A stretch of 64,000 nt of DNA from Alphaproteobacteria bacterium (GCA_028278105.1 JANQEX010000077.1:2030-66029); one strand, 5' to 3'; positions 31,075-64,000 are shown, counted from the first letter of the stretch. Notes: a model not told the origin generated them from the sequence alone. A program made the numbers and translations.

Positions 31075-31977
31075 TTATACAAGAAGCCGCAGAAACCTTG
31101 ATTTTGTTGAATCACTCGCGTAACGCTGCGGAGGGGCTTTTATTTTTCGCAAGCGCTCATAGCGTTGTTCATGGTCCGGATGCCTTTGGAACAGTGTGTA
31201 CCTTAAGAACCTTACAGGCAAGCGCAGGTACGCCCATGTTTTTTTGGAAATGGAATAACGTTTCCATGTTTTTCCGTAACGCTTTGTCCTTGACTTCGCC
31301 CCGGAAAAGTCTGCGGCAGCCGTTTCAGGATCTCTGGTAAGAACGGCGCCAACCCGGTCGGCTTGAAACTCGTTCTGGCGGGAATGGTACATAAGAGTCC
31401 CAAACGCGGGCAGGAACCCTAAAAGGAAACTCGTATAGAAAGTGGGGCTGAACAGAAAAAGAAGGGCTATATTCTGGGGAGAATGCCTGAGCTTTACGTG
31501 AGCCAACTCATGACCAAGAATAGCCCGAAGCTCTTTCTTGGTTTTATATTGTAGGTAATCTGAAGAAAATGCGATTATGTCTTTATGAAACATGCGTAGC
31601 GTAGCGGTCCGTTTAGGATGGATGCGTATATCAGGAGGGCGTCGTAATCCCATCCTTGCGCACAATTTTTCATTTTCTTTTCGCAGATATGTTAGTTTTT
31701 CTTGAATGTCGGGATCACTGGTTTCCCTGGTTCTGTAAATGAATTGATTTAATAGCATGCGCCCCCCAAAAATAGCCATAGTCATCGTTAACCCCGTCAC
31801 CGAACGAAGTGGAGAAAGGTAAAAAGAAGCGCAACACTCCAGCCCCGCGAGTGCAAAGCAGGCCAAAGTTCGTCTTTTTTCTCGCGGCAACGGTTCGAGC
31901 GTATCAAGCTCTGGCGCAATGCCCGGAGTTTTTTTCATTGCCGCCGGTTGCCGCATTTTTTGCAGTTGGGATGTCAT
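31075..31977 (-). CDS. M48-family zinc metallopeptidase (HtpX-like), in an AT-rich island
   Basis: HELAHVKLRH zinc-binding HExxH motif within a hydrophobic protein. The island at roughly 30910-32240 has much lower GC than its surroundings. Confidence 0.6.
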   Translation of the reverse strand: MTSQLQKMRQPAAMKKTPGIAPELDTLEPLPREKRRTLACFALAGLECCASFYLSPLRSVTGLTMTMAIFGGRMLLNQFIYRTRETSDPDIQEKLTYLRKENEKLCARMGLRRPPDIRIHPKRTATLRMFHKDIIAFSSDYLQYKTKKELRAILGHELAHVKLRHSPQNIALLFLFSPTFYTSFLLGFLPAFGTLMYHSRQNEFQADRVGAVLTRDPETAAADFSGAKSRTKRYGKTWKRYSISKKTWAYLRLPVRFLRYTLFQRHPDHEQRYERLRKIKAPPQRYASDSTKSRFLRLLV

Positions 31978-54518: not shown

Positions 54519-55920
54519 AATGGAAGTCATTGCCTCCGCCGCGATAGGGACCCAGGCGCCGCTCATGCAGTCTTTGCTTGATGGCCAGCGCCTCGGATGC
54601 CGAAGGGTAAAGCGATGAATCCTCCGGCACGCTTTTGTCATGCACGGCATAGGCTTTGCTTAAACTCCGGTTCAGGCCTTGCGCCTCGTCCACAATCGCC
54701 CAGGCCCGCGCATAAGTTGTGCAGCTAAGCGCCAGAAGAAGCACGGCCGCGGCCCATCCCGCTCGCGCGGCGAATCCGCCTTTCAGCCGGGTCAAAAACG
54801 GCAAGGCCCTTTGAAGATCACAACAAGCCGCAAGCAGTCCGAAATACATGATATTCGCAACAATGGTGGTGGGCGACACGCCGGCATGGGCAACGCCATA
54901 TCCGGGGAGCGCGCCGCGTCCATAGCCGACGGCGCCGGCGACCAGAACCGCATAGGACACGGCCAGCACAAAAAAACCATTGCGTGTTTCCGCCAGTCTT
55001 TCGCGTTTTCGCAGAACATGAATGAAATACGCTGCGGCAAGGGCGCAGACGACGCCGCCGCAAACGGCGTTGATCGCGTATTCGCTGGCATGGCCGAACA
55101 TGCCGATGTGATACATCCAGACAAGGTTGCCAAGCGGCTTGCCCAGAAATACGAGCACGTAAAGCGCAAGATCAATGACTCCCGGATGTTCCTGCGCCGT
55201 AAACGGCAGTCCCGGAAAATACAGCGCCGCCGCCGCCGTGGCATTGGCGATCCAGAAGGCTCTTTCCATCCATGTCGTTTTTCGCAGAAACAGCACCAGC
55301 AGCAACACCGGCAAGAAGGCCAGGATGCCGCTGGCAAAGCTGTAAGTGGCGAACCATAGAAGAATGGCCGCCAAAATCCGCGACGGCCAGCGCCGGGCGG
55401 CTTGCGCCAGCAATACATAGGCGCAGAGCACATAGGCGCAGCACATCACGAGTTCGATCATGAAGCTCCACCACATGTTCACATGCTGCGCGGGCGAAAA
55501 GCCAAGAATGGCCGCCGCGCCCAGTATCGCCGTCCGTTCCCAGCCTCCAACATTGGCCGGGAGGACGCGATGGAGGAAAAAAAGAACGGCCGCCACCTGC
55601 CCGGTCTGGAACAGGTTGAGCAGAACGAATTCCCAGCGCAGGTTCCATCCCGACAGCAGGGCGGGACCCAGCAGCAAAAGCCGTGGCGCGGCGATGCGAT
55701 GCTCGTTATGCGGCTGGAAGATGCGGGAAAGCGTCAGCGCGCCGTCATGGGCGGAAGCGACCAGCGAGGAAGTGTCCCCCGCATGATCCCAGAAGGGATG
55801 GACCAGCGCGCCCGACTGGGAAAAGGCCACATAGTAAAGCGCGGGCAGAAGGACGAGCAGCCACGCTGTCCAAGCAGGCAGTGATATTTTGTCAGCGAAG
55901 AAAGGCTTTGTCATCGGCAT
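54517..55920 (-). CDS. Polytopic membrane protein (possible GT-C glycosyltransferase / polymerase)
   Basis: 467-aa ORF with at least 10 hydrophobic helices, located in the glycan cluster. No soluble-domain motifs. Confidence 0.45.
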   Translation of the reverse strand: MPMTKPFFADKISLPAWTAWLLVLLPALYYVAFSQSGALVHPFWDHAGDTSSLVASAHDGALTLSRIFQPHNEHRIAAPRLLLLGPALLSGWNLRWEFVLLNLFQTGQVAAVLFFLHRVLPANVGGWERTAILGAAAILGFSPAQHVNMWWSFMIELVMCCAYVLCAYVLLAQAARRWPSRILAAILLWFATYSFASGILAFLPVLLLVLFLRKTTWMERAFWIANATAAAALYFPGLPFTAQEHPGVIDLALYVLVFLGKPLGNLVWMYHIGMFGHASEYAINAVCGGVVCALAAAYFIHVLRKRERLAETRNGFFVLAVSYAVLVAGAVGYGRGALPGYGVAHAGVSPTTIVANIMYFGLLAACCDLQRALPFLTRLKGGFAARAGWAAAVLLLALSCTTYARAWAIVDEAQGLNRSLSKAYAVHDKSVPEDSSLYPSASEALAIKQRLHERRLGPYRGGGNDFH

Positions 55921-56007
55921 GAAGAGTATTCAGAAGGCTCTAGACTGGCCGAACGTAGTGTTTTTTGATTATAACGAGTTGTCGGACAAGGTCATCGGTT
56001 TTTTGGC

Positions 56008-56214
56008 CTAGCGCCATTCGCATTCCTTGAGGCACCGGCCGAAGTTCTTCTTCACGCCGCTGAACTTGGAGAGACGGCGTTTGACGAAGGACCAGAAACT
56101 TTCAATGCCGTTGATGCGCGCGCCGTGCAGGGCGAAGGCCTTTCTTTTGTTGATGCGCGAATGCTTGTCAAAGTCCACATCCATCAACCCGTCATAGCCG
56201 CTCCACACAAACAA
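56008..56214 (-). pseudogene. IS1595-family (ISXO2-like) transposase C-terminal fragment
   Basis: The 68-aa ORF ...INGIESFWSFVKRRLSKFSGVKKNFGRCLKECEWR matches the conserved C-terminal DDE-domain end of IS1595-family transposases. No N-terminal region or IS ends were found. It lies in an AT-rich patch. Confidence 0.7.
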
Positions 56215-56215
56215 A

Positions 56216-56295
56216 AACGGCAGGCCGGAGCCTGCCGTCTCATTTTGTGAACAACGTCTTGTTAACGGTAAGACGCCGTTTTCTAATCAGCTGTT
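56216..56295 (-). ncRNA. Predicted tracrRNA of the type II-C system
   Basis: The minus strand at 56272-56292 is a perfect 21-nt complement of the crRNA repeat segment GACGCCGUUUUCUAAUCAGCU, extendable with a bulge. Downstream on the minus strand lie the hairpin AACAAGACGTTGTT and the terminator GACGGCAGGCTCCGGCCTGCCGT-TTTTTGTTT. The upstream promoter is TTGACG-N18-TAAAAT (56300-56329). Confidence 0.7.
56217..56238 (-). terminator. Rho-independent terminator hairpin (tracrRNA 3' end)
   Basis: ACGGCAGGC-CGGA-GCCTGCCGT stem-loop followed on the minus strand by UUUUUGUUU. Also U-rich on the plus side. Confidence 0.7.
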
Positions 56296-56299
56296 GCGA

Positions 56300-56329
56300 A
56301 TTTTAGCCGGCCGGGCTTATCGTCGTCAA
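56300..56329 (-). promoter_or_regulatory. Predicted sigma70 promoter of tracrRNA (minus strand -35 TTGACG, 18-bp spacer, -10 TAAAAT)
   Basis: Reverse complement of 56324-56329 is TTGACG and of 56300-56305 is TAAAAT. The hexamers are the same as in the repeat-embedded promoters of the array. Confidence 0.5.
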
Positions 56330-56353
56330 GGCAATTTAATAGGGGGACAAGCA

Positions 56354-59300
56354 ATGAAAACCCGTCTTGCGCTTGATCTAGGCTCAACATCACTCGGATG
56401 GTGCCTTCTGGAAATGAACAATGAGGCGCCCACAGGCATAAAAGCCATGGGAGTACGCATATTTCCCGACGGACGCGACAATCAGTCCAAGAAGCCCCTG
56501 GCTGTTGCCAGGCGCTTGGCGCGCGGCATGCGCCGCAATCATGACCGGCGAAAATGGCGGCGGCAATTGCTGATGTCTTATCTCGTGGAGAAAGGACTTA
56601 TGCCTTCCACGAAAAGCGAACAAAAGGAACTGGAAAAGCTTGACCCATACGAACTTAGGGCCAGGGCAATCAAGGAAAAACTGTCGCCCTTTCAAATTGG
56701 CCGGGCCTTGTTTCATATAAATCAGCGCCGCGGATTCAAAAGCAATCGAAAAACAGATAAAAAGGAAAATGACGCAGGCGCAATGAAGAACGCCATAAGG
56801 GATTTGGATGGCAAGCTAATGTCTTCCGGCTACCGGACACTTGGCGCCTATTTGAACAATCTCCATCAAGAGAACAAGCCCGTTCGCGTTCGCCGCGCTG
56901 TGGTCGGGAAAGAGACTTCGTATAACTTCTATCCTGAAAGAAAAATGTACGAAGAAGAAGTTGACCGGATTCTGAAAGAGCAGGAAAAGCACCACCCAAT
57001 CCTTACCGAAGAGATTTGCAGGCGAATCAAGGAAATCATTTTTTTCCAGCGCCCCCTGAAACCAGCGAAAGTTGGGAATTGCGTCTTTGAAAATAGAGAG
57101 CCCAGAGCCCGGCTCGCCCTGCCAATTGTGCAAAAATTCCGCATTCTGCAAGAAGTAAACAACCTGGAGATTGAAGATTTTGGTTGTGGCGAAAGGCAAT
57201 TAACGCAGGAGGACCGGAAAAAGATCATCGAGCGCCTCCGCGTCAACAGGCGGATAACCTTTAAGGGTTTACGGAAATTTCTCAAGCTTGGCAGCGATCT
57301 CCGGTTCAATCTTGAAAGTGACAAAAGAGATGAACTGGCTGGTGATGTAACCTCGTGCCTGTTATCCGACGACAGGGCTTTTGGTTCACGGTGGCAAAAA
57401 CTGACGGACGATGAACGGGAAAAAATTGTTGAATTGCTTTTTGAGGAATCTCATGAGGAGAAACTAATCCATGCGCTTGCAGGGCAATTTGGGGCCACGC
57501 CCGAACAGGCCCTTTATGTTTCCGGCCTTGATCTTCCCGACGGCTATGGCCGTGTGAGCAAAAAAGCCATTCAGAAAATGCTTCCTCATCTGGAGGCGGG
57601 TTGCCGTTATGCGGAAGCCGCAAAAAGGGCCGGTTATCATCATTCTGACTTTCGAACAGGAGAGGTTTTCGACGAGCTACCCTATTACGGGCAGGTCTTG
57701 CAAAGCCAGGTGATCGGCGGAAGTTACAGCGAAGATGATAAGGCGAGTCCCGAACTCTATTACGGCAGAATTAACAACCCTTCGGTGCATATTGCGCTCA
57801 ACCAGTTGCGCAAGCTTGTTAACTCCATCATCGCCGCATACGGCAAGCCGGATGAGTTCGTCATCGAACTGGCGCGGGATTTAAAAGAACCTGCCGGCAA
57901 GATTCTTGAGGAACAGTCAAAAAACACAAAAGACAACAAACGCATCAGCGCCGAACTGGAAAAACTTGGCGTGAGAAACAATTATCGCAACCGCATGCTT
58001 TATAAATTGTGGGAAGATTTGGCCAAACAGCCGGAACGGCGTTGTTGCCCCTTCAGTGGCACGCAAATTTCCGCCGCGGACATTTTTTCAGGAAAATTCG
58101 AGGAAGAGCATCTTCTGCCCTTCTCCCGCAGCTTTAACGATGGAAGGGCCAACAAGGTTCTCTCCCGTGTCGACTGGAACCGGAAGAAAGGCAACCGCTC
58201 TCCTTTCGACGCTTTTGGTCACGAGCCTTTCTGGCCGGATATTATGGCCCGTGTACAAAATCTGCCTGCAAACAAGCAATGGCGGTTTAAAAAAGACGCA
58301 TGGACGCGGATGGAAGGCGAAGACGGCGTCATTGCCCGCATGCTGAACGACACACGCTACATGTCGCGTCTTGCCAAAGCCTATCTATCCGCTGTCTACG
58401 ATAACGAGAAAGGCAAAAGCAGTGTTTGGGCGTCAAACGGACAGCTTACGGCGCTGCTTCGCAAAAAGCTGGGCCTGAACGCTCTCCTTGGCGAGGACGA
58501 TTCCAAGGACAGGGCCGATCATCGTCATCATGCGGTTGACGCTTTTGTTGTCGGCCTTGGTGACCGGGGCTTATTGAGAAAGGTTTCGGATGCCGCCCGA
58601 CGCATGGAAACCACGGAGGGGCTTTGGGAAAAACGCCAGAAACTCGTGGAAGGTCTGGAAGAACCTTTTCCCGAATTCAGGGAAAAACTGGTCAATCATC
58701 TGGAGACCCTGGTTGTTTCCTTCAAACCGGATCACGGCAATGCACAAAAAGCCGTCCATGCAGCCCCGCCCTACACCATTGCCCCGCTGCACGATCAAAC
58801 GGCTTGCGGATTTATCGGCAAGGGAGAAGGAAATAACACTGTACTTGTCGCAACCCGCAGGCCCGTTGAAAGTCTTGAAAAGATCAAGCATATAGAGGAA
58901 ATAGCCGACGCCGTTATCCGCAATGAACTGCTTCAGGCCGTAAAAGGCCTTAAAGAAAAAAGCACGGAGTGGAAACAGGCCCTCGCGGCCTTCACGGCAC
59001 GGACAGGCACGAGAAGAGTTCGTGTCCACATTAAGCGGAGCAAGGACACCCTTATTGGCATTTCCTCCGGCCATCAGCAAAACAATCCCTACAAATACTA
59101 TGCAACCGGCGGAAATTACTGCGCGGAAATTTATTGTCCTGACAAGGGCAGGCTTGCCGGCAAATGGCAATGCGAGGTGATTTCGAACTATGACGCGCAC
59201 CGGAAGGACTTTGTGCCCGAATGGAAAAAACAGAATCCTGCCGCAAAACGGGTCATGCGCCTGCAAATAGACGACATGGTTGCCTACGAGAAGGATGGGG

Positions 59301-59500
59301 AAACCGTCATCGCGCGCGTGAAAAAAATTGCAAAAGGCCATGGCGGCCGAATCTACTTCCGCAAGCACACCGTTGCGAAGGAAGAGGCCGACAAACTTAG
59401 TTGGTGTGCTTTTGTTTCACGCATGCAAGCGGCAAATTTGCGAAAAATTTCCGTTGATATTATTGGCCGCGTGCGTGACCCAAGGGCCAGAGTCGCATAG
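56354..59500 (+). CDS. cas9: CRISPR-associated endonuclease Cas9, type II-C (1048 aa)
   Basis: RuvC-I MKTRLALDLGSTSLGWCLLE at the N-terminus (RBS AGGGGGA upstream). HNH motif EEEHLLPFSRSFNDGRANKVL...NRKKGNRSPFDAF. Arginine-rich bridge helix (RRLARGMRRNHDRRKWRR). Compact size and no csn2/cas4 nearby. The track ORF start at 56294 is an upstream in-frame extension. Confidence 0.9.
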   Translation: MKTRLALDLGSTSLGWCLLEMNNEAPTGIKAMGVRIFPDGRDNQSKKPLAVARRLARGMRRNHDRRKWRRQLLMSYLVEKGLMPSTKSEQKELEKLDPYELRARAIKEKLSPFQIGRALFHINQRRGFKSNRKTDKKENDAGAMKNAIRDLDGKLMSSGYRTLGAYLNNLHQENKPVRVRRAVVGKETSYNFYPERKMYEEEVDRILKEQEKHHPILTEEICRRIKEIIFFQRPLKPAKVGNCVFENREPRARLALPIVQKFRILQEVNNLEIEDFGCGERQLTQEDRKKIIERLRVNRRITFKGLRKFLKLGSDLRFNLESDKRDELAGDVTSCLLSDDRAFGSRWQKLTDDEREKIVELLFEESHEEKLIHALAGQFGATPEQALYVSGLDLPDGYGRVSKKAIQKMLPHLEAGCRYAEAAKRAGYHHSDFRTGEVFDELPYYGQVLQSQVIGGSYSEDDKASPELYYGRINNPSVHIALNQLRKLVNSIIAAYGKPDEFVIELARDLKEPAGKILEEQSKNTKDNKRISAELEKLGVRNNYRNRMLYKLWEDLAKQPERRCCPFSGTQISAADIFSGKFEEEHLLPFSRSFNDGRANKVLSRVDWNRKKGNRSPFDAFGHEPFWPDIMARVQNLPANKQWRFKKDAWTRMEGEDGVIARMLNDTRYMSRLAKAYLSAVYDNEKGKSSVWASNGQLTALLRKKLGLNALLGEDDSKDRADHRHHAVDAFVVGLGDRGLLRKVSDAARRMETTEGLWEKRQKLVEGLEEPFPEFREKLVNHLETLVVSFKPDHGNAQKAVHAAPPYTIAPLHDQTACGFIGKGEGNNTVLVATRRPVESLEKIKHIEEIADAVIRNELLQAVKGLKEKSTEWKQALAAFTARTGTRRVRVHIKRSKDTLIGISSGHQQNNPYKYYATGGNYCAEIYCPDKGRLAGKWQCEVISNYDAHRKDFVPEWKKQNPAAKRVMRLQIDDMVAYEKDGETVIARVKKIAKGHGGRIYFRKHTVAKEEADKLSWCAFVSRMQAANLRKISVDIIGRVRDPRARVA

Positions 59501-59511
59501 GAACAGGGATA

Positions 59512-60420
59512 ATGCTTGCCCGCATCATAGAAATAACAACGGATAACAGGCACCTTTATGTTGAACGCGGCTTTATGTGCATCAGCGCGCATGGAGAAGA
59601 GCAGGCCAGAATAGCGCTTGATGACATAGGCGCTGTTATCTCCTGCGCGCATGGCCTGACCTTCAGCAACAATCTTCTTGTCCAACTGGCGGCGCGGAAT
59701 ACCCCGTTTATCGCATGTGGGTCGAATTTTGTTCCTGTTGCGTGCCTTTGGTCCCTGGAGGGAAACTACAACCAGTCCTCCCGCATGGATGCCCAGATCG
59801 AGGCGACAAAACCAAAAAGCAAGCAATTGTGGAAACAAATCGTTCAGGTGAAGATTACCCAGCAGGCCGCCGTTCTGGAAGCTGTTGGCGCAAACCCGGC
59901 GCCGGTCAAGGCCCTTGTCAGGTTTGTGCGTTCGGGTGATCCTGAAAACATTGAAGCGCAGGCGGCGCGGCGTTATTGGCAGGCCTTGTTCGGAACGGAC
60001 TTTCGCAGGGACCAGACCGCGGGCGGGATAAACGCACTCCTTAACTACGGATATATGATTATCCGTTCATGCGTCGCCAGAGCCATTATGGGCGCGGGCC
60101 TGCACCCTTCGCTTGGCATACATCATTCCAATGCCGGCAACCCCATGCGCCTGGTCGATGACCTGATGGAACCCTACCGCCCTTTTGTTGATTTCGCCGC
60201 GTGGCATTTGAAACAGCGAAAACAGGAAGAAGTGACGGCGGAAACCAAACGGGAGCTTGTCGCCGTTCTGGATAAGGAAATTGCAACGGAAAAAGGCATG
60301 ACAACCCTTCGAAACAATATTCAGGATGCGGCAACAGGCCTCGCTTTCATTTTCATGGATAAACAAAAAAGCCTTGAACTTCCCAGCCCCCAACCCCCGC
60401 TCTGGCTCGAAACATCATGA
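59512..60420 (+). CDS. cas1: CRISPR-associated endonuclease Cas1 (type II)
   Basis: 302-aa ORF directly after cas9. Type II Cas1 features include the N-terminus MLARIIEITTDNRHLYVERG, the NYGYMIIRSCVARAIMGAGLHPSLGIHH region and a conserved E/H/E catalytic arrangement. Confidence 0.85.
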   Translation: MLARIIEITTDNRHLYVERGFMCISAHGEEQARIALDDIGAVISCAHGLTFSNNLLVQLAARNTPFIACGSNFVPVACLWSLEGNYNQSSRMDAQIEATKPKSKQLWKQIVQVKITQQAAVLEAVGANPAPVKALVRFVRSGDPENIEAQAARRYWQALFGTDFRRDQTAGGINALLNYGYMIIRSCVARAIMGAGLHPSLGIHHSNAGNPMRLVDDLMEPYRPFVDFAAWHLKQRKQEEVTAETKRELVAVLDKEIATEKGMTTLRNNIQDAATGLAFIFMDKQKSLELPSPQPPLWLETS

Positions 60421-60755
60421 GCCAGGTCCCTTACAGCAGGTTCCGACTCATGTGGATGATGGTGATGTTCGACCTCCCGGTCATGACGTCCGCCGAAAGA
60501 AAGATGGCAACGAAATTTCGTAATTTCCTTCTCGATAAAGGATTTGAAATGTCGCAGTTTTCAGTGTATTTTCGTTTTTGTGGGGACAGAAGCAACACAA
60601 CGCCCTATGTGAACAGCATCAAAAAGAATGCGCCAAAAGGCGGGCGCGTCAGTATTCTTTTTTTCACGGATAAACAGTTTTCCGAAATCATCAATATCCA
60701 GAACAGGGCCGTGCAACCACCAACAAAAAATCCGGATCAACTGGTGTTGATATGA
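60417..60755 (+). CDS. cas2: CRISPR-associated endoribonuclease Cas2
   Basis: 112-aa ORF overlapping the cas1 stop by 4 nt, with the Cas2 N-terminal beta strand MWMMVMFDLPV and conserved FSVYFRF. Confidence 0.8.
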   Translation: MSQVPYSRFRLMWMMVMFDLPVMTSAERKMATKFRNFLLDKGFEMSQFSVYFRFCGDRSNTTPYVNSIKKNAPKGGRVSILFFTDKQFSEIINIQNRAVQPPTKNPDQLVLI

Positions 60756-60825
60756 CTTTTTTCCCCGAATTTTCAGCAAAAAAAGAAAAGATAAGCCCTC
60801 TGTTTCAAGGGCTTATCTCAAAGGC

Positions 60826-61785
60826 ATTATAGCTGATTAGAAAACGGCGTCAAACCGCAACGACGGCAGTATCCATCATTTTTATGACACGATTATAGCT
60901 GATTAGAAAACGGCGTCAAACCGCAACAGACCCCTGCTCGCCATCGCCAAACAACGCATTATAGCTGATTAGAAAACGGCGTCAAACCGCAACTTACGGT
61001 GGTCGGCGGCGTAGCTACGGCTCATTATAGCTGATTAGAAAACGGCGTCAAACCGCAACGCGCTGTAGGTGCGGACGATTACGTAATCTATTATAGCTGA
61101 TTAGAAAACGGCGTCAAACCGCAACAGCGCACTGCCCAATGTGACTGACCATTAAATTATAGCTGATTAGAAAACGGCGTCAAACCGCAACTGCTCACCG
61201 CGTCCGAAATAGACTGGAACGATTATAGCTGATTAGAAAACGGCGTCAAACCGCAACTCGCGGCGTGGGCGGCTGCAATATGCGATTATTATAGCTGATT
61301 AGAAAACGGCGTCAAACCGCAACTTGAGCTCGGCCTGGCTGTTCAGGAGGCTCATTATAGCTGATTAGAAAACGGCGTCAAACCGCAACGACAAAACCGT
61401 TCGGTATTTATCCGTTTTGATTATAGCTGATTAGAAAACGGCGTCAAACCGCAACCCAAACAACGCACTCGACTGCCAATACTCAATTATAGCTGATTAG
61501 AAAACGGCGTCAAACCGCAACAGCTGCGCTGCCGCCTGCGCTGTTGTCTGCATTATAGCTGATTAGAAAACGGCGTCAAACCGCAACTGGCGATGCGCGC
61601 GCAAGCGGCATAGAGAAATTATAGCTGATTAGAAAACGGCGTCAAACCGCAACAGTCAAGGTTCGGAGGGACGGAGGTTCGTAATTATAGCTGATTAGAA
61701 AACGGCGTCAAACCGCAACATACCGATAGCAGCGGCGCGTAGCGCGTCCATTATAGCTGATTAGAAAACGGCGTCAAACCGCAAC
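60826..61785 (-). CRISPR. CRISPR array of 15 identical 36-bp repeats and 14 spacers of 30 bp
   Basis: Plus-strand repeat ATTATAGCTGATTAGAAAACGGCGTCAAACCGCAAC. Canonical orientation is the reverse complement GTTGCGGTTTGACGCCGTTTTCTAATCAGCTATAAT, which resembles the Neisseria type II-C repeat ends GTTG...ACAAT and contains TTGACG-N16-TATAAT. The period is exactly 66 bp. The minus strand was assigned from the repeat-internal promoter orientation. Confidence 0.95.
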
Positions 61786-61817
61786 AATTTCGGCGATGAT
61801 AAGAAGCTTCTTAAAAA

Positions 61818-61894
61818 TGGCGCGCCCGAAGAGATTCGAACTCCTAGCCTTCTGATCCGTAGTCAGATGCTCTATCCAGTTGAGCTACGGGCGC
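61818..61894 (-). tRNA. tRNA-Arg (anticodon ACG)
   Basis: Minus strand GCGCCCGTAGCTCAACTGGATAGAGCATCTGACTACGGATCAGAAGGCTAGGAGTTCGAATCTCTTCGGGCGCGCCA has a 7-bp acceptor stem, D and T arms, anticodon loop CTACGGA and an encoded CCA. Confidence 0.85.
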
Positions 61895-62036: not shown

Positions 62037-62909
62037 ATGGACATGTCAACGGCGGCACCTTCCCTGCAAACCCTGACCCATGCCCTGCCGCGCGCGGGGC
62101 ACGCGCTGCCCGCCCCGGCTTCCCTGGCCGTGTCCGTGGTCCTGTCCGTGGCCAACGAGGAAGGCAACATCCTGCCCCTGTGCGATGAAATCGCGGCATC
62201 CATGGAAGGCCTCGCCGGCCCCGGCGGTTATGAGATTGTCTTTGTCGACGACAAAAGCACCGACGGCACGCGCGATGAAATCCTGCGCGCCATGCAAAAA
62301 AATCCCGCCATCCGCCTGATCTGCCACGAAACGCGCCATGGCAAAAGCCAGGGCGTGTGGACCGCCCTGCGCCACGCGCGCGGGGCCTGGATCGTGACCA
62401 TGGACGGCGACGGCCAGAACGACCCCGCCGATATCGGCAAGCTGCTGGATATCGCCTGGAGCAAGGGGCGCGCGGCCAATCTTCTGGTCAGCGGCGTGCG
62501 CGTCAACCGCAAGGGCACGCGGACAAAGCGATGGGCCAGCCGCTTCGCCAACGCCCTGCGCCGCTTTTTGCTGAAAGACGATTGCCCCGACACCGGCTGC
62601 GCGCTGAAAGCCTTTCGCCGCGACGCCTACCTGGCCCTGCCCTATTTCGACGGCATCCACCGCTACGAGCCCGCCCTGTTCCGCCTATACGGACATGAGA
62701 TCATTTACGTTCCCGTTCATGACCGCGACCGCCGCCATGGCGTTTCCAAATACGGCAATGCCAAAAGGGCGCTGGTGGGAATCTTCGACCTGATCGGCCT
62801 GATGTGGCTGCAACGGCGTTACAAGGCGCGGCGGGAGCAAAGCGTGGAGGTGGAGCTGATCGCCGCCTCCGCGCCGCAGGCCGCGCGGCAAAACGCCAGG
62901 GACGGCTGA
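62037..62909 (+). CDS. Family 2 glycosyltransferase, GtrB/ArnC/DPM1-like polyprenyl-phosphate sugar transferase
   Basis: GT2 motifs (LSVVLSVANEEGNI, YEIVFVDDKSTDGT, DGDGQND) and a C-terminal TM helix (LVGIFDLIGLMWL). The start was chosen at ATG 62037. Confidence 0.7.
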   Translation: MDMSTAAPSLQTLTHALPRAGHALPAPASLAVSVVLSVANEEGNILPLCDEIAASMEGLAGPGGYEIVFVDDKSTDGTRDEILRAMQKNPAIRLICHETRHGKSQGVWTALRHARGAWIVTMDGDGQNDPADIGKLLDIAWSKGRAANLLVSGVRVNRKGTRTKRWASRFANALRRFLLKDDCPDTGCALKAFRRDAYLALPYFDGIHRYEPALFRLYGHEIIYVPVHDRDRRHGVSKYGNAKRALVGIFDLIGLMWLQRRYKARREQSVEVELIAASAPQAARQNARDG

Positions 62910-62914
62910 CCGGC

Positions 62915-64000
62915 ATGGCCGCCGCGCTTGAACAGGCCATGGCGCTGCACCGGCTGGGTCTTTTCGACAAGGCCGAGGCCGCCTATCGCCGGATTCTGGA
63001 ATCCGATCCCCAAAACGCCGATGCGCTGGCCTTGCTGGGCTGCGCCCTGTCGGAGCGGAAAAAGCACCCCGAAGCCGTCGCCGCGATTGAAGCCGCGCTG
63101 AAGCTGGACCCGCAAGCGGCGCTGTTTCATTTTCATCTTGGCAACGCGCAGGACAAGGCGGGCAATCCCGAAAAGGCGGAAGCGGCCTTCGCCCGCGCCA
63201 TCGCGCTCAAACCGGATTGGGACGAGGCCTGGTACAATCTTGGCAATGCCCAACGCGCCTTGCGCAAGACCGGCGACGCCGCGACAAGCTATGAGCGCGC
63301 GCTGAAAATCAACCCGTCGCATTTTCTGGCGCTGAATAATCTGGGCGCGATGCTTTTGAAAAAGGGTAAACCGCAGGAAGCCCGCAAGCTGTTTAACGCG
63401 GCGCGGGCGCTGAATCCCAATCATGTGCAGACACTGCTCAACCTGACCGACGCCGCTTTTGAACTGAACGATTTGCCCGCCGCCTTCGAAGCCGCGCAAC
63501 GCGCCGCCGAAATCAAGCTGGGGCTGGACGCCAGGGCCGAAGGCTGGCTTTCGCGCGCGGGGCTGTTCAAAAATCTGGACGAGGAAGGCATCAACAGTTT
63601 CCTGACCCTTGCCACCAGCCTGTCGCTTCAGGGAAGGCTGGCCGAGAGTGGCGCGATCTTGCGCGGGCTTCTGGCCGAGGAACCGGACATGGCCGAGGCT
63701 TTCTCCTGCCTTGGCGTCCTCGCGCTTGCCCGCAATCGTCTGGACGCCGCCGAGGAATGCTATGCGCTTTGCTTCGCGCTTGATCCTTCCGGCGCTCCGG
63801 CGCCCTGGAACCGCGCCATGGTTCAGCTTGTGCGCGGCGACCTGCATGACGGCTTCCGCCGCTACCGCTGGCGCTGGCACGCGCTACAGAAGTTCCGCGG
63901 CCTTCGCCTTGACGGACCCATGTGGGATGGGCGCGATCTGGAGGGCAAAACCATCCTGCTGCATGAAGAGCAGGGCTACGGCGACAGCTTGCAGATGCTG
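62915..64000 (+). CDS. TPR-repeat protein with a C-terminal glycosyltransferase-like domain (partial, continues beyond the window)
   Basis: Translated by hand from ATG 62915: MAAALEQAMALHRLGLFDKAEAAYRRILESDPQNADALALLGCAL... shows tandem TPR motifs, then RYRWRWH...DGRDLEGKTILLHEEQGYGDSLQM, typical of TPR-linked glycosyltransferase domains. There is no stop before 64000, which is why it is absent from the ORF track. Confidence 0.6.
   Translation, partial: MAAALEQAMALHRLGLFDKAEAAYRRILESDPQNADALALLGCALSERKKHPEAVAAIEAALKLDPQAALFHFHLGNAQDKAGNPEKAEAAFARAIALKPDWDEAWYNLGNAQRALRKTGDAATSYERALKINPSHFLALNNLGAMLLKKGKPQEARKLFNAARALNPNHVQTLLNLTDAAFELNDLPAAFEAAQRAAEIKLGLDARAEGWLSRAGLFKNLDEEGINSFLTLATSLSLQGRLAESGAILRGLLAEEPDMAEAFSCLGVLALARNRLDAAEECYALCFALDPSGAPAPWNRAMVQLVRGDLHDGFRRYRWRWHALQKFRGLRLDGPMWDGRDLEGKTILLHEEQGYGDSLQML

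What the first reader, a model, noticed from the sequence alone, without database searches (positions are those of the whole stretch)
56008..61894. Complete, low-GC type II-C CRISPR-Cas island wedged between a glycan cluster and tRNA-Arg
From 56.0 to 61.9 kb the sequence reads: IS1595 transposase remnant, divergent tracrRNA, cas9 (1048 aa), cas1, cas2, a 15-repeat array and tRNA-Arg(ACG). GC content is visibly lower than the ~65% background. GtrA-, GT2- and GT-C-like glycan genes lie on both sides. A tRNA gene at one edge and an IS remnant at the other is the usual signature of a horizontally acquired island. Uniform 30-bp spacers, a 36-bp repeat, a compact Cas9 and the absence of csn2/cas4 assign it to subtype II-C.
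Basis: partly seen in the sequence, partly recalled or inferred. Interest (0 to 1): 0.6.

Follow-up and report, generated by a model that had tools for sequence, protein, structure and literature searches.

The report
Imported type II-C CRISPR-Cas9 locus

Summary
The region contains, in order:
- a truncated IS1595 transposase remnant, 56008-56214(-)
- a divergent tracrRNA, about 56209-56294(-)
- cas9 (1048 aa), cas1 and cas2
- 15 identical 36-nt repeats with 14 spacers of 30 nt, 60826-61785
- tRNA-Arg(ACG), 61818-61894(-)

GC is 50.5% against 62.3% for the rest of the window. GC3 of the cas genes is 0.56-0.59 against 0.66-0.87 for host genes.

Type II-C is supported. The operon is cas9-cas1-cas2 only. 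Cas1 is the NMENI type. The best solved-structure matches are Cas9 chains I recognise as II-C. All catalytic residues are intact.

Every repeat carries TTGACG-N16-TATAAT on the minus strand. A conserved terminator hairpin follows the cas2-proximal repeat. This matches the Neisseria model of crRNAs made from repeat-embedded promoters.

crRNA:tracrRNA pairing covaries across seven lineages (16 of 37 pairs compensatory).

Horizontal acquisition is supported. Three distant relatives keep tRNA-Arg-GT2-TPR-rplU but have other content beside the tRNA and no CRISPR there. Related Cas9 modules sit in unrelated contexts, some inside integrase-bearing tRNA-Lys islands.

- The IS remnant has host-like GC3 and is not imported cargo.
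- There is no integrase and no att repeat.
- "GT-C-like" is unverified.
- No spacer target was found.

Verdict: a new member of a known kind, low interest.

The parts
56008..56214 (-). Truncated IS1595-family transposase gene (C-terminal 68 codons only). It abuts the island but is not part of the low-GC import.
   Evidence: NF033547 positions 143-211 of 215, E=2.4e-11; PF12762. GC3 is 0.80, host-like. There is no second copy in the window.
56300..56329 (-). Predicted tracrRNA promoter, TTGACG-N18-TAAAAT.
   Evidence: Promoter scan. A TTGAC-type promoter sits at the same position in six related loci.
56209..56294 (-). tracrRNA (predicted, about 86 nt). It has an anti-repeat at about 56261-56292, a conserved linker AAGAyG..TTCACAAAATGA, and a terminator hairpin at 56214-56241 followed by a T-run.
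   Evidence: Duplex with the repeat is -49.2 kcal/mol. Terminator found by scan. Covariation across 7 lineages: 94.6% of cells paired, 16 of 37 pairs compensatory, 0 of 500 shuffles as high.
56354..59500 (+). cas9, 1048 aa. Catalytic residues present: RuvC D8, E505, H726, D729; HNH E585-H586, N609.
   Evidence: TIGR01865 E=1e-193; Pfam RuvC_III, HNH_4, Cas9_a. Residue conservation checked in 116 homologues. Best PDB matches are Cas9 chains I recognise as type II-C.
59512..60420 (+). cas1, type II (NMENI) class.
   Evidence: TIGR03639, 256 bits against a cutoff of 120. PADLOC Cas1_II E=1e-98.
60417..60755 (+). cas2.
   Evidence: TIGR01573 and PF09827. PADLOC Cas2_II E=1e-41.
60756..60825 (-). 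Leader region. It holds a conserved hairpin plus T-run at 60819->60788, which acts as an intrinsic terminator for minus-strand array transcripts. This is also the inferred spacer-insertion end.
   Evidence: Terminator scan. A hairpin with compensatory changes sits at the same place in five related loci, L002, L004, L086, L088 and L089. The variable end of related arrays is cas2-proximal.
60826..61785 (-). CRISPR array: 15 identical 36-nt repeats and 14 spacers of 30 nt. The crRNA sense is the minus strand: GTTGCGGTTTGACGCCGTTTTCTAATCAGCTATAAT. Each repeat contains TTGACG-N16-TATAAT.
   Evidence: array; 15 promoter matches of 11 out of 12 positions on the minus strand. The whole-region scan found 20 promoter-like sites against 4.7 +/- 1.9 in shuffles.
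61818..61894 (-). Host tRNA-Arg(ACG). Its 3' end faces the array, 32 nt away.
   Evidence: ARAGORN and Rfam, 67.3 bits. An orthologous tRNA sits in the same position next to GT2 in three relatives.
56215..61817 (.). Extent of the compositionally foreign segment (about 5.6 kb).
   Evidence: GC about 0.50 against 0.62 for the rest. GC3 of cas genes 0.56-0.59 against 0.66-0.87 for host genes. Homology with related cas modules ends at the tracrRNA terminator.

Best explanation
A complete, apparently functional type II-C CRISPR-Cas9 adaptive immunity locus. It was acquired horizontally from a lower-GC donor and now sits in the variable region on the 3' side of the host's tRNA-Arg(ACG).

How it works:
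- The tracrRNA is transcribed divergently from cas9 on the minus strand. (The sequence features are shown; expression is inferred.)
- The array is also read on the minus strand, towards cas2. Transcription starts from a near-consensus sigma-70 promoter inside every repeat, so each crRNA should begin about 6-8 nt into its spacer, leaving a 23-25-nt guide. (Inferred.)
- Transcripts stop at a conserved hairpin terminator in the leader. (Inferred.)
- The crRNA repeat pairs with the tracrRNA anti-repeat. The duplex has a 7-8-bp lower stem with a bulge, a small U-rich internal loop and a 21-bp upper stem. (Pairing is shown by covariation across lineages.)
- RNase III may trim the duplex but is probably dispensable, as in Neisseria meningitidis. 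(Inferred by analogy.)
- Cas9 then cuts PAM-flanked DNA with its intact HNH and RuvC sites. (The residues are shown; activity is inferred.)
- Cas1-Cas2 add new spacers at the cas2-proximal end. (Inferred from array comparison in a related lineage.)

The spacers average 58% GC. That is closer to the host (62%) than to the cas module (50%), which suggests the array was filled while in a high-GC host.
For: - Gene identities.
- Array.
- Anti-repeat duplex of -49.2 kcal/mol.
- tracrRNA promoter and terminator, 15 repeat-embedded promoters (TTGACG-N16-TATAAT) and the leader terminator.
- The same layout in six other lineages at 49-67% Cas9 identity.
- Covariation of crRNA:tracrRNA pairing and of the terminator stem (94.6% paired, 16 of 37 pairs with double changes, 0 of 500 shuffles as high, slid controls 30-58% paired).
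- Catalytic residues present and conserved in the clade.
- Best solved-structure matches are type II-C Cas9s by my recognition.
- Two arrays with the same Cas9 (L086, L087) share only their 8 cas-distal spacers.
- Composition: GC 50.5% against 62.3%; GC3 0.56-0.59 against 0.66-0.87.
- In low-GC hosts the cas module has the same GC as its flanks. In the two high-GC hosts it is lower.
- Relatives keep tRNA-Arg-GT2-TPR-rplU but lack CRISPR-Cas at this site.
- Published precedent for repeat-embedded promoters and RNase III-independent crRNAs in N. meningitidis and C. jejuni: PMC5965381 and PMC12477760.
Against: - There is no expression data. Promoters, transcription start sites and terminators are consensus matches only.
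- No protospacer was found for any spacer, so the PAM and actual targeting are unknown.
- The relatives used for the empty-site comparison are distant (GT2 66-68% identity, GC 52-56%). Loss of synteny on the tRNA's 3' side could reflect general divergence rather than insertion.
- No integrase, att repeat or second IS copy explains how the module arrived.
- After correcting for base composition, the tetranucleotide signature of the island is not distinguishable from the host's (r = 0.878 against 0.873 +/- 0.052).
Confidence: 0.85

Rival explanations
1. The module is the stranded remnant of a small integrase-driven island that integrates at tRNA genes. On this reading the integrase/excisionase genes and the distal att site were later lost, possibly in the same event that truncated the IS1595 copy.
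For: - Cas9 relatives at 53-60% identity (L086, L087, L089) lie inside islands of about 10.5 kb.
- These islands read: tyrosine integrase, tracrRNA, cas9-cas1-cas2, array, an HTH_17 protein, tRNA-Lys(TTT). They are bounded by perfect 52-53-bp repeats of the tRNA 3' half.
- In the window the tRNA has the same orientation relative to the array.
- The IS remnant is cut exactly at the tracrRNA terminator.
Against: - There is no integrase or Xis-like gene in or beside the island.
- No tRNA-Arg fragment of 15 nt or more occurs anywhere else in the window.
- The array ends only 32 nt from the tRNA, leaving no room for an excisionase gene like the one in the tRNA-Lys islands.
- The target tRNA is different.
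- The closest Cas9 relatives (L002, L003-5) are not in such islands.
Confidence: 0.3
2. The locus is vertically inherited in this lineage. Its low GC reflects the amino-acid composition and constraints of cas genes, not recent transfer.
For: - cas loci are often somewhat AT-richer than their genomes.
- The base-composition-corrected tetranucleotide signature is host-like.
- Spacer GC is near host GC, so the locus has been resident for some time.
Against: - GC3, which is largely free of protein constraint, is 0.56-0.59 against 0.66-0.87 in all host genes of the window.
- The non-coding leader, tracrRNA and repeats are also low-GC.
- Three relatives lack it at the orthologous tRNA-Arg site.
- In low-GC hosts the same module matches its flanks.
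Confidence: 0.08
3. The locus is intact in sequence but no longer used for immunity. It could be silent, or retained for another role such as limiting natural transformation or regulating genes.
For: - No spacer has a detectable target.
- Type II-C systems have reported non-canonical roles. PMC5965381 covers limiting natural transformation in Neisseria. PMC13431127 covers a II-C scaRNA that regulates efeUOB, known to me from the title and abstract listed.
Against: - All 15 repeats are identical.
- All ORFs are full-length with catalytic residues intact.
- Two spacers overlap on the same unknown target, and spacer GC tracks the host. Both fit active acquisition.
- Missing targets are expected for a lineage this poorly sampled.
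Confidence: 0.12

Closest known systems
Neisseria meningitidis type II-C CRISPR-Cas9 (Nme1Cas9 locus; Zhang et al. 2013, as summarised in PMC5965381 and PMC12477760)
   Same: - A three-gene operon of cas9-cas1-cas2 with a compact Cas9 (1048 aa here against 1082 aa).
- 36-nt repeats starting GTTG and ending in a -10 box (..GCTATAAT here, ..GCTACAAT in Nme from my memory), with 30-nt spacers.
- The array is read towards the cas genes from a promoter in every repeat.
- The leader (acquisition end) lies at the transcriptionally downstream end of the array.
- A tracrRNA with a long anti-repeat.
   Different: - Cas9 matches Nme chains only at E about 1e-58, and mostly over the N-terminal 750 residues.
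- Here each repeat carries a full -35 (TTGACG) plus -10, rather than the -10-type element described for Neisseria.
- The tracrRNA is divergent and upstream of cas9.
- The HNH motif is E-H instead of D-H, which is the consensus of this clade.
- The PAM is unknown.
Uncultured alphaproteobacterial Cas9 loci (P0002/L002, P0005/L003-5, P0007/L086-87, P0043/L088, P0055/L089, Sneathiella chinensis P0077/L090)
   Same: - The same layout throughout.
- The same tracrRNA core (CGTTAACAAGA..TTCACAAAATGAAACGG..hairpin).
- The same repeat family and repeat-embedded promoter.
- A hairpin at the same leader position in five of the six (L002, L004, L086, L088, L089).
   Different: - Cas9 identity is only 49-67%.
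- The genomic contexts are entirely different: a housekeeping neighbourhood, prophage-like genes, or tRNA-Lys integrative islands.
- The window copy is the one most out of compositional equilibrium with its host.
CampyICE1 CRISPR-Cas9 of Campylobacter (PMC8743540)
   Same: It is a published example of a type II-C Cas9 system carried on an integrative mobile element, showing that II-C modules do travel on such elements.
   Different: CampyICE1 lacks cas1 and cas2 and has scattered mini-arrays on a 70-kb conjugative element. The window locus is complete, compact and shows no conjugation or integration genes.

Membership tests
Type II-C CRISPR-Cas | A Cas9 effector with split RuvC-like and HNH nuclease domains. 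| tested here: met
   TIGR01865 at 646 bits against a cutoff of 100. Pfam RuvC_III, HNH_4 and Cas9_a. D8, E505, H726, D729, E585-H586 and N609 are present.
Type II-C CRISPR-Cas | An operon limited to cas9, cas1 and cas2, with no csn2 (II-A) and no cas4 (II-B). | tested here: met
   cas2 ends at 60755 and the array starts at 60826. Upstream of cas9 there are only the tracrRNA and an IS fragment. Neighbouring ORFs that were scanned carry no cas domains. ORFs under 200 aa elsewhere in the window were not scanned.
Type II-C CRISPR-Cas | A tracrRNA with an anti-repeat complementary to the CRISPR repeat. | tested here: met
   29-bp interrupted duplex, -49.2 kcal/mol. It has its own promoter and terminator. 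Pairing is supported by covariation in 7 lineages. Expression was not tested.
Type II-C CRISPR-Cas | The Cas9 sequence groups with II-C Cas9 proteins rather than II-A or II-B. | tested here: met
   The ranking of PDB matches puts the chains I recognise as II-C first (E 5e-62 to 1e-33), St1 and Sa (II-A) at 1e-29 to 1e-25, and no Spy- or Fn-length chain at E<=1e-5. Subtype labels of PDB entries come from my own knowledge. No formal tree was built.
Type II-C CRISPR-Cas | A type II (NMENI) Cas1. | tested here: met
   TIGR03639 at 256 bits against a cutoff of 120.
Type II-C CRISPR-Cas (Neisseria/Campylobacter mode of crRNA biogenesis) | A promoter embedded in each repeat, with crRNA 5' ends made by transcription initiation inside spacers. 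| tested here: inconclusive
   The sequence motif TTGACG-N16-TATAAT is present in all 15 repeats and conserved in relatives. Transcription start sites cannot be tested with these tools.
Integrase-mediated genomic island integrating at a tRNA gene | The island lies next to the 3' end of a tRNA gene and has deviant composition. | tested here: met
   The 3' end of tRNA-Arg is 32 nt from the array. GC and GC3 are outliers.
Integrase-mediated genomic island integrating at a tRNA gene | A tyrosine or serine integrase gene within the island. | tested here: not met
   The 5.6-kb segment holds only the tracrRNA, cas9, cas1, cas2 and the array.
Integrase-mediated genomic island integrating at a tRNA gene | A direct repeat of the tRNA 3' end (att) at the far border. 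| tested here: not met
   The longest exact tRNA fragment near the left border is 10 nt. Elsewhere in the window, outside the tRNA's own flank, the longest is 12 nt, which is chance level. Related tRNA-Lys islands have 52-53-bp repeats.
IS1595 composite transposon | Two IS copies bracketing the cargo. | tested here: not met
   There is a single truncated copy and no other match in the window.

The most novel reading that the evidence does not exclude
The window's locus is a stripped-down descendant of a family of very small (about 10.5 kb) integrative cassettes that integrate at tRNA genes. Their only substantial cargo is a complete type II-C CRISPR-Cas9 system. These cassettes would shuttle whole adaptive immune systems between Alphaproteobacteria of very different GC content. 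The same Cas9 clade has also given rise to RuvC-inactivated, cas1/cas2-less, single-guide derivatives on conjugative elements (L096, L097).
Probability: 0.3. Interest if true: 0.45.

Novelty: new member of a known kind. Interest (0 to 1): 0.22.

Why it matters
For the window itself the value is modest.
- It adds a well-annotated II-C Cas9 ortholog of 1048 aa, at most 67% identical to any other sequence in 5.8 billion proteins. A confident sgRNA design is available, but the PAM is unknown.
- It extends the Neisseria-type 'promoter in every repeat' architecture to a broad clade of uncultured Alphaproteobacteria.
- It gives a clean example of a defence module caught out of compositional equilibrium beside a tRNA hot spot.

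The side observations in related loci may deserve their own follow-up more than the window does. These are the minimal integrase-plus-Cas9 islands and the RuvC-substituted single-guide Cas9 genes on mobile elements.

Tried and rejected
- **Empty-site comparison with close relatives.** This is not possible. The best GT2 match among 185,579 species representatives is 50% identical, with no tRNA-Arg synteny. The 467-aa left-flank protein is essentially an orphan, with 32% as its best match. More distant relatives (GT2 66-68% identity) were found through the protein database and used instead.
- **Spacer targets.**
  - No self-match in the window at up to 7 mismatches.
  - Nothing significant in the phage or plasmid collections.
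  - No exact match in IMG/VR for three spacer cores.
  - One 25-nt match in two soil-metagenome contigs (L091, L092) falls in a chromosomal SAM-methyltransferase gene and diverges across the PAM-proximal end of spacer 13. I treat it as chance or uninformative.
- **Exact repeat search.** No match in the metagenome or viral collections.
- **att-site search.** Negative.
- **Second IS1595 copy.** None found.
- **Tetranucleotide signature.** Raw frequencies make the island an outlier (r = 0.62 against 0.97 +/- 0.014). After correcting for base composition it is not (0.878 against 0.873 +/- 0.052). The signal is therefore GC content only.
- **Rfam.** Only the tRNA reaches its family threshold. The 'BASRCII26' hit is just the tracrRNA terminator hairpin.
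- **PADLOC.** Its Cas9 models are not subtype-specific.
- **Source organism.** It could not be named. The exact proteins occur only on an unnamed 70-kb NCBI contig and in the Logan assembly of SRR20820740.
Full report
**Observation**

- ORF listing and family scans give cas9 at 56354-59500(+), 1048 aa (TIGR01865 E=1e-193; Pfam RuvC_III, HNH_4, Cas9_a).
- cas1 is at 59512-60420 (TIGR03639 'cas1_NMENI', 256 bits against a cutoff of 120) and cas2 at 60417-60755.
- The array runs 60826-61785. It has 15 identical 36-nt repeats at exactly 66-nt spacing, giving 14 spacers of 30 nt.
- tRNA-Arg(ACG) is at 61818-61894 on the minus strand.
- The 68-codon ORF at 56008-56214(-) matches only the last third of an IS1595 transposase (profile positions 143-211 of 215).
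Among 201 host windows of the same size the mean is 62.4%, the sd 1.6% and the minimum 59.2%.

**Orientation and RNA parts**

The anti-repeat upstream of cas9 is followed, on the minus strand, by a strong hairpin and T-run (56241->56214). It is preceded by TTGACG-N18-TAAAAT (56329->56300). The tracrRNA is therefore a minus-strand RNA of about 86 nt (about 56294->56209), divergent from cas9. It follows that the crRNA sense of the repeat is the minus strand: GTTGCGGTTTGACGCCGTTTTCTAATCAGCTATAAT.

In that sense every one of the 15 repeats contains TTGACG-N16-TATAAT, matching 11 of 12 consensus positions. The scan found 20 promoter-like sites in the region against 4.7 +/- 1.9 in shuffles.

Directly after the cas2-proximal repeat, still on the minus strand, lies a 13-bp hairpin followed by TTTTCTTTTTTT (60819->60788). 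Transcripts from the repeat promoters would therefore run towards cas2 and stop before entering it antisense. The promoter of the last repeat would fire almost directly into this terminator.

This is the architecture described for N. meningitidis and C. jejuni type II-C. There, crRNAs start at promoters inside the repeats, from the 6th nucleotide of each spacer in Neisseria, and RNase III is dispensable (PMC5965381, PMC12477760).

**Comparative support**

The window Cas9 is identical only to a protein on an unnamed 70-kb NCBI contig and a Logan assembly. The next relative is 67% identical, and named relatives are alphaproteobacterial MAGs and Sneathiella chinensis at 49%.

I fetched six further lineages: L002, L003-5, L086/87, L088, L089 and L090. 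All have the same order:
- a divergent tracrRNA with a TTGAC-type promoter
- a nearly invariant core, CGTTAACAAGA...TTCACAAAATGAAACGG, followed by a terminator hairpin
- cas9-cas1-cas2
- an array whose repeat keeps the TTGAC and TAnAAT-like boxes

Five of the six (L002, L004, L086, L088, L089) also show the leader hairpin between cas2 and the array.

Each lineage's repeat folds with its own tracrRNA into the same duplex: a 7-8-bp lower stem with a one-base bulge, a 2-3-nt U-rich internal loop and a ~21-bp upper stem.

On an alignment of repeat-GAAA-tracrRNA fusions, 94.6% of cells are paired and 16 of 37 pairs show changes on both sides. None of 500 shuffles reaches the observed values, and slid controls pair only 30-58%. 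The tracrRNA and its pairing are therefore well supported.

Two samples with the same Cas9 protein (L086, L087) share only the eight cas-distal spacers. They differ in all 31 and 22 cas2-proximal spacers respectively. In this clade new spacers therefore enter at the cas2-proximal (leader) end, opposite to the direction of transcription. The Neisseria leader-adjacent repeat is 'R26' (PMC12477760). If repeats there are numbered in transcription order, which is my inference, the leader is likewise at the transcriptionally downstream end.

**Subtype**

The operon has no room for csn2 or cas4, and Cas1 is the NMENI type. The top solved-structure matches (E 5e-62 to 1e-33) are chains I recognise as type II-C Cas9s: Geobacillus-type, Nme1/Nme2 and CjCas9. 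St1 and Sa Cas9 come only at 1e-29 to 1e-25, and no Spy- or Fn-length chain appears at E<=1e-5.

Catalytic residues are present: D8, E505, H726 and D729 for RuvC, and H586 and N609 for HNH. The residue before the HNH histidine is Glu rather than Asp, which is the clade consensus (110 of 116). I did not build a formal tree. Type II-C is nevertheless the only reading consistent with all the tests.

**Foreign origin**

GC3 separates the cas genes (0.556, 0.587, 0.575) from every host gene in the window (0.66-0.87), so the low GC is not a protein-composition effect.

In related loci the module has the same GC as its flanks when the host is low-GC (46/45, 40/40, 44/45, 55/56%). It is lower in the two high-GC hosts (window 51/62, L004 55/63).

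Raw tetranucleotide frequencies make the island an extreme outlier (r = 0.62 against 0.97 +/- 0.014). After correcting for base composition it is host-like (0.878 against 0.873 +/- 0.052), so the deviation is essentially GC.

Close relatives of the host do not exist in the databases. The protein database did yield three family-level relatives (GT2 66-68%, TPR protein 53-59% identical). Their order is tRNA-Arg(ACG)(-), GT2(+), TPR, rplU, rpmA (followed by obg in L094 and L095), which matches the window's right flank as far as the window reaches (GT2 and the start of the TPR gene).
- The tRNA genes are nearly identical, and sequence diverges right after the CCA.
- The 3' side of the tRNA carries different genes in each genome. 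None has CRISPR-Cas there, and none has homologues of the window's left-flank genes.
- In two of them that side is low-GC (41.7% against 57.8%; 48.3% against 54.1%).

The tRNA-Arg 3' flank is thus a variable hot spot, and the cas module is one occupant of it.

**What the edges do and do not show**

The IS1595 fragment has GC3 of 0.80, like the host. It is cut exactly where homology to related cas modules ends, at the tracrRNA terminator. It is a resident element truncated at the junction, not imported cargo.

There is no integrase. No tRNA-Arg fragment longer than 12 nt occurs elsewhere in the window outside the tRNA's own flank, and there is no second IS copy.

By contrast, relatives L086/87 and L089 carry the module inside islands of about 10.5 kb. 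These have a tyrosine integrase at one end and an HTH_17 protein plus tRNA-Lys(TTT) at the other. They are bounded by perfect 52-53-bp repeats of the tRNA 3' half.

This shows the clade does travel on tRNA-integrating elements. A 'decayed island' origin for the window copy is therefore plausible (about 0.3) but not demonstrated.

**Spacers**

Mean spacer GC is 0.58, nearer the host than the module, with no trend along the array. Spacers 5 and 13 overlap by 11 nt in the same orientation. Together they reconstruct a 49-nt stretch of one unknown target and give one candidate 3' flank, CGATGGCG.

No target was found in the window, in the phage or plasmid collections, or in IMG/VR. The one 25-nt metagenome match is in a chromosomal methyltransferase gene and does not fit the PAM-proximal end.

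**Verdict**

The refinements are these:
- crRNA and tracrRNA are both on the minus strand.
- Every repeat carries a promoter, and the leader carries a terminator hairpin.
- The imported segment is about 56215-61817.
- The IS remnant is host-like.
- The mechanism of insertion is unresolved.
- 'GT-C-like' is unverified.

The locus is a new member of a well-known kind, so interest is low. The more unusual material lies outside the window.

The first item is the minimal integrase-plus-Cas9 islands described above.

The second is a subclade of homologues (for example P0040 and P0047) with RuvC D8 changed to N/S/A/T and E505 changed to G/S.
- These have no cas1 or cas2.
- They keep a conserved tracrRNA and have a single spacer.
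- They sit next to relaxase, ArdC and toxin-antitoxin genes.
- A published partial precedent is the cas1/cas2-less Cas9 of CampyICE1 (PMC8743540).

Noticed in passing
L096:5600-9400 and L097:5400-9300 (relatives, not the window): A subclade of Cas9 homologues, 51-55% identical to the window's, has the RuvC-I Asp replaced by N/S/A/T and the RuvC-II Glu by G/S. Members are P0040, P0045-47, P0050, P0051, P0056 and P0060-63. Some also change the residue before the HNH His. The two loci fetched have no cas1 or cas2. They keep a fully conserved tracrRNA and carry only one repeat, or one full repeat plus one truncated promoter-bearing repeat around a single 30-nt spacer. They sit beside ArdC, a MOB relaxase and an N6/N4 methylase (L096), or Fic and ParDE (L097). 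They look like mobile-element-borne, adaptation-less Cas9s with a hard-wired single guide that may only nick or bind DNA.
   Followed up: partly
L086:3718-14401, L087:3718-13659, L089:4467-15011: Complete type II-C modules of this clade lie inside integrative islands of about 10.5 kb. The order is tyrosine integrase, (RelE/HTH), tracrRNA, cas9-cas1-cas2, array, an HTH_17 protein, tRNA-Lys(TTT). The islands are bounded by perfect 52-53-bp direct repeats of the tRNA 3' half.
   Followed up: partly
window 60928-60957 and 61456-61485: Spacers 13 and 5 (numbered in transcription order) overlap by 11 nt in the same orientation. Together they rebuild a 49-nt piece of one unknown target, TGAGTATTGGCAGTCGAGTGCGTTGTTTGGCGATGGCGAGCAGGGGTCT. 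This gives one candidate PAM-side flank, CGATGGCG. No genuine target was found.
   Followed up: partly
window 31075-31977 (-): A second compositionally foreign gene: 300 aa with a Peptidase_M48 domain, GC 0.474 and GC3 0.465 against host GC3 of 0.66-0.87. The 31-32 kb bin is the lowest-GC kilobase in the window.
   Followed up: partly
window 62819-63880 (-) and 62903-64000 (+): The 353-aa minus-strand ORF appears spurious. The plus-strand frame from about 62903 is open to the window end. It is 53-59% identical to the TPR protein that follows GT2 in relatives, ahead of rplU-rpmA.
   Followed up: yes
L093:2923-7820, L094:4250-7702, L095:1-1580: The 3' flank of the orthologous tRNA-Arg(ACG) carries different ORFan-rich content in each relative. 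It is markedly low-GC in L095 (41.7% against 57.8%) and in L094 (48.3% against 54.1%), which suggests a recurrent insertion hot spot.
   Followed up: partly
L003/L004/L005:300-4000: The 65%-identical Cas9 module sits directly next to a large terminase gene, a DUF6456 gene and an S24/LexA-type repressor. These are prophage-like neighbours.
   Followed up: no
window 60788-60831 (-): The -10 box of the cas2-proximal repeat ends at 60826 and the terminator hairpin starts at 60819. This last promoter would therefore produce only a ~40-nt hairpin RNA. That would prevent both a leader-derived pseudo-crRNA and antisense transcription into cas2.
   Followed up: partly
window 55968-55995 (-): A promoter-like site, ATGACC-N16-TATAAT, lies between the stop of the IS1595 remnant and the start of the 467-aa membrane-protein gene at 55920. 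The IS end may supply that gene's promoter.
   Followed up: no
L091:6162-6186 and L092:6577-6601: A 25-nt exact match to the spacer 5/13 target region lies inside a class I SAM-methyltransferase gene of a soil-metagenome organism. It diverges on both sides and is most likely coincidental.
   Followed up: yes
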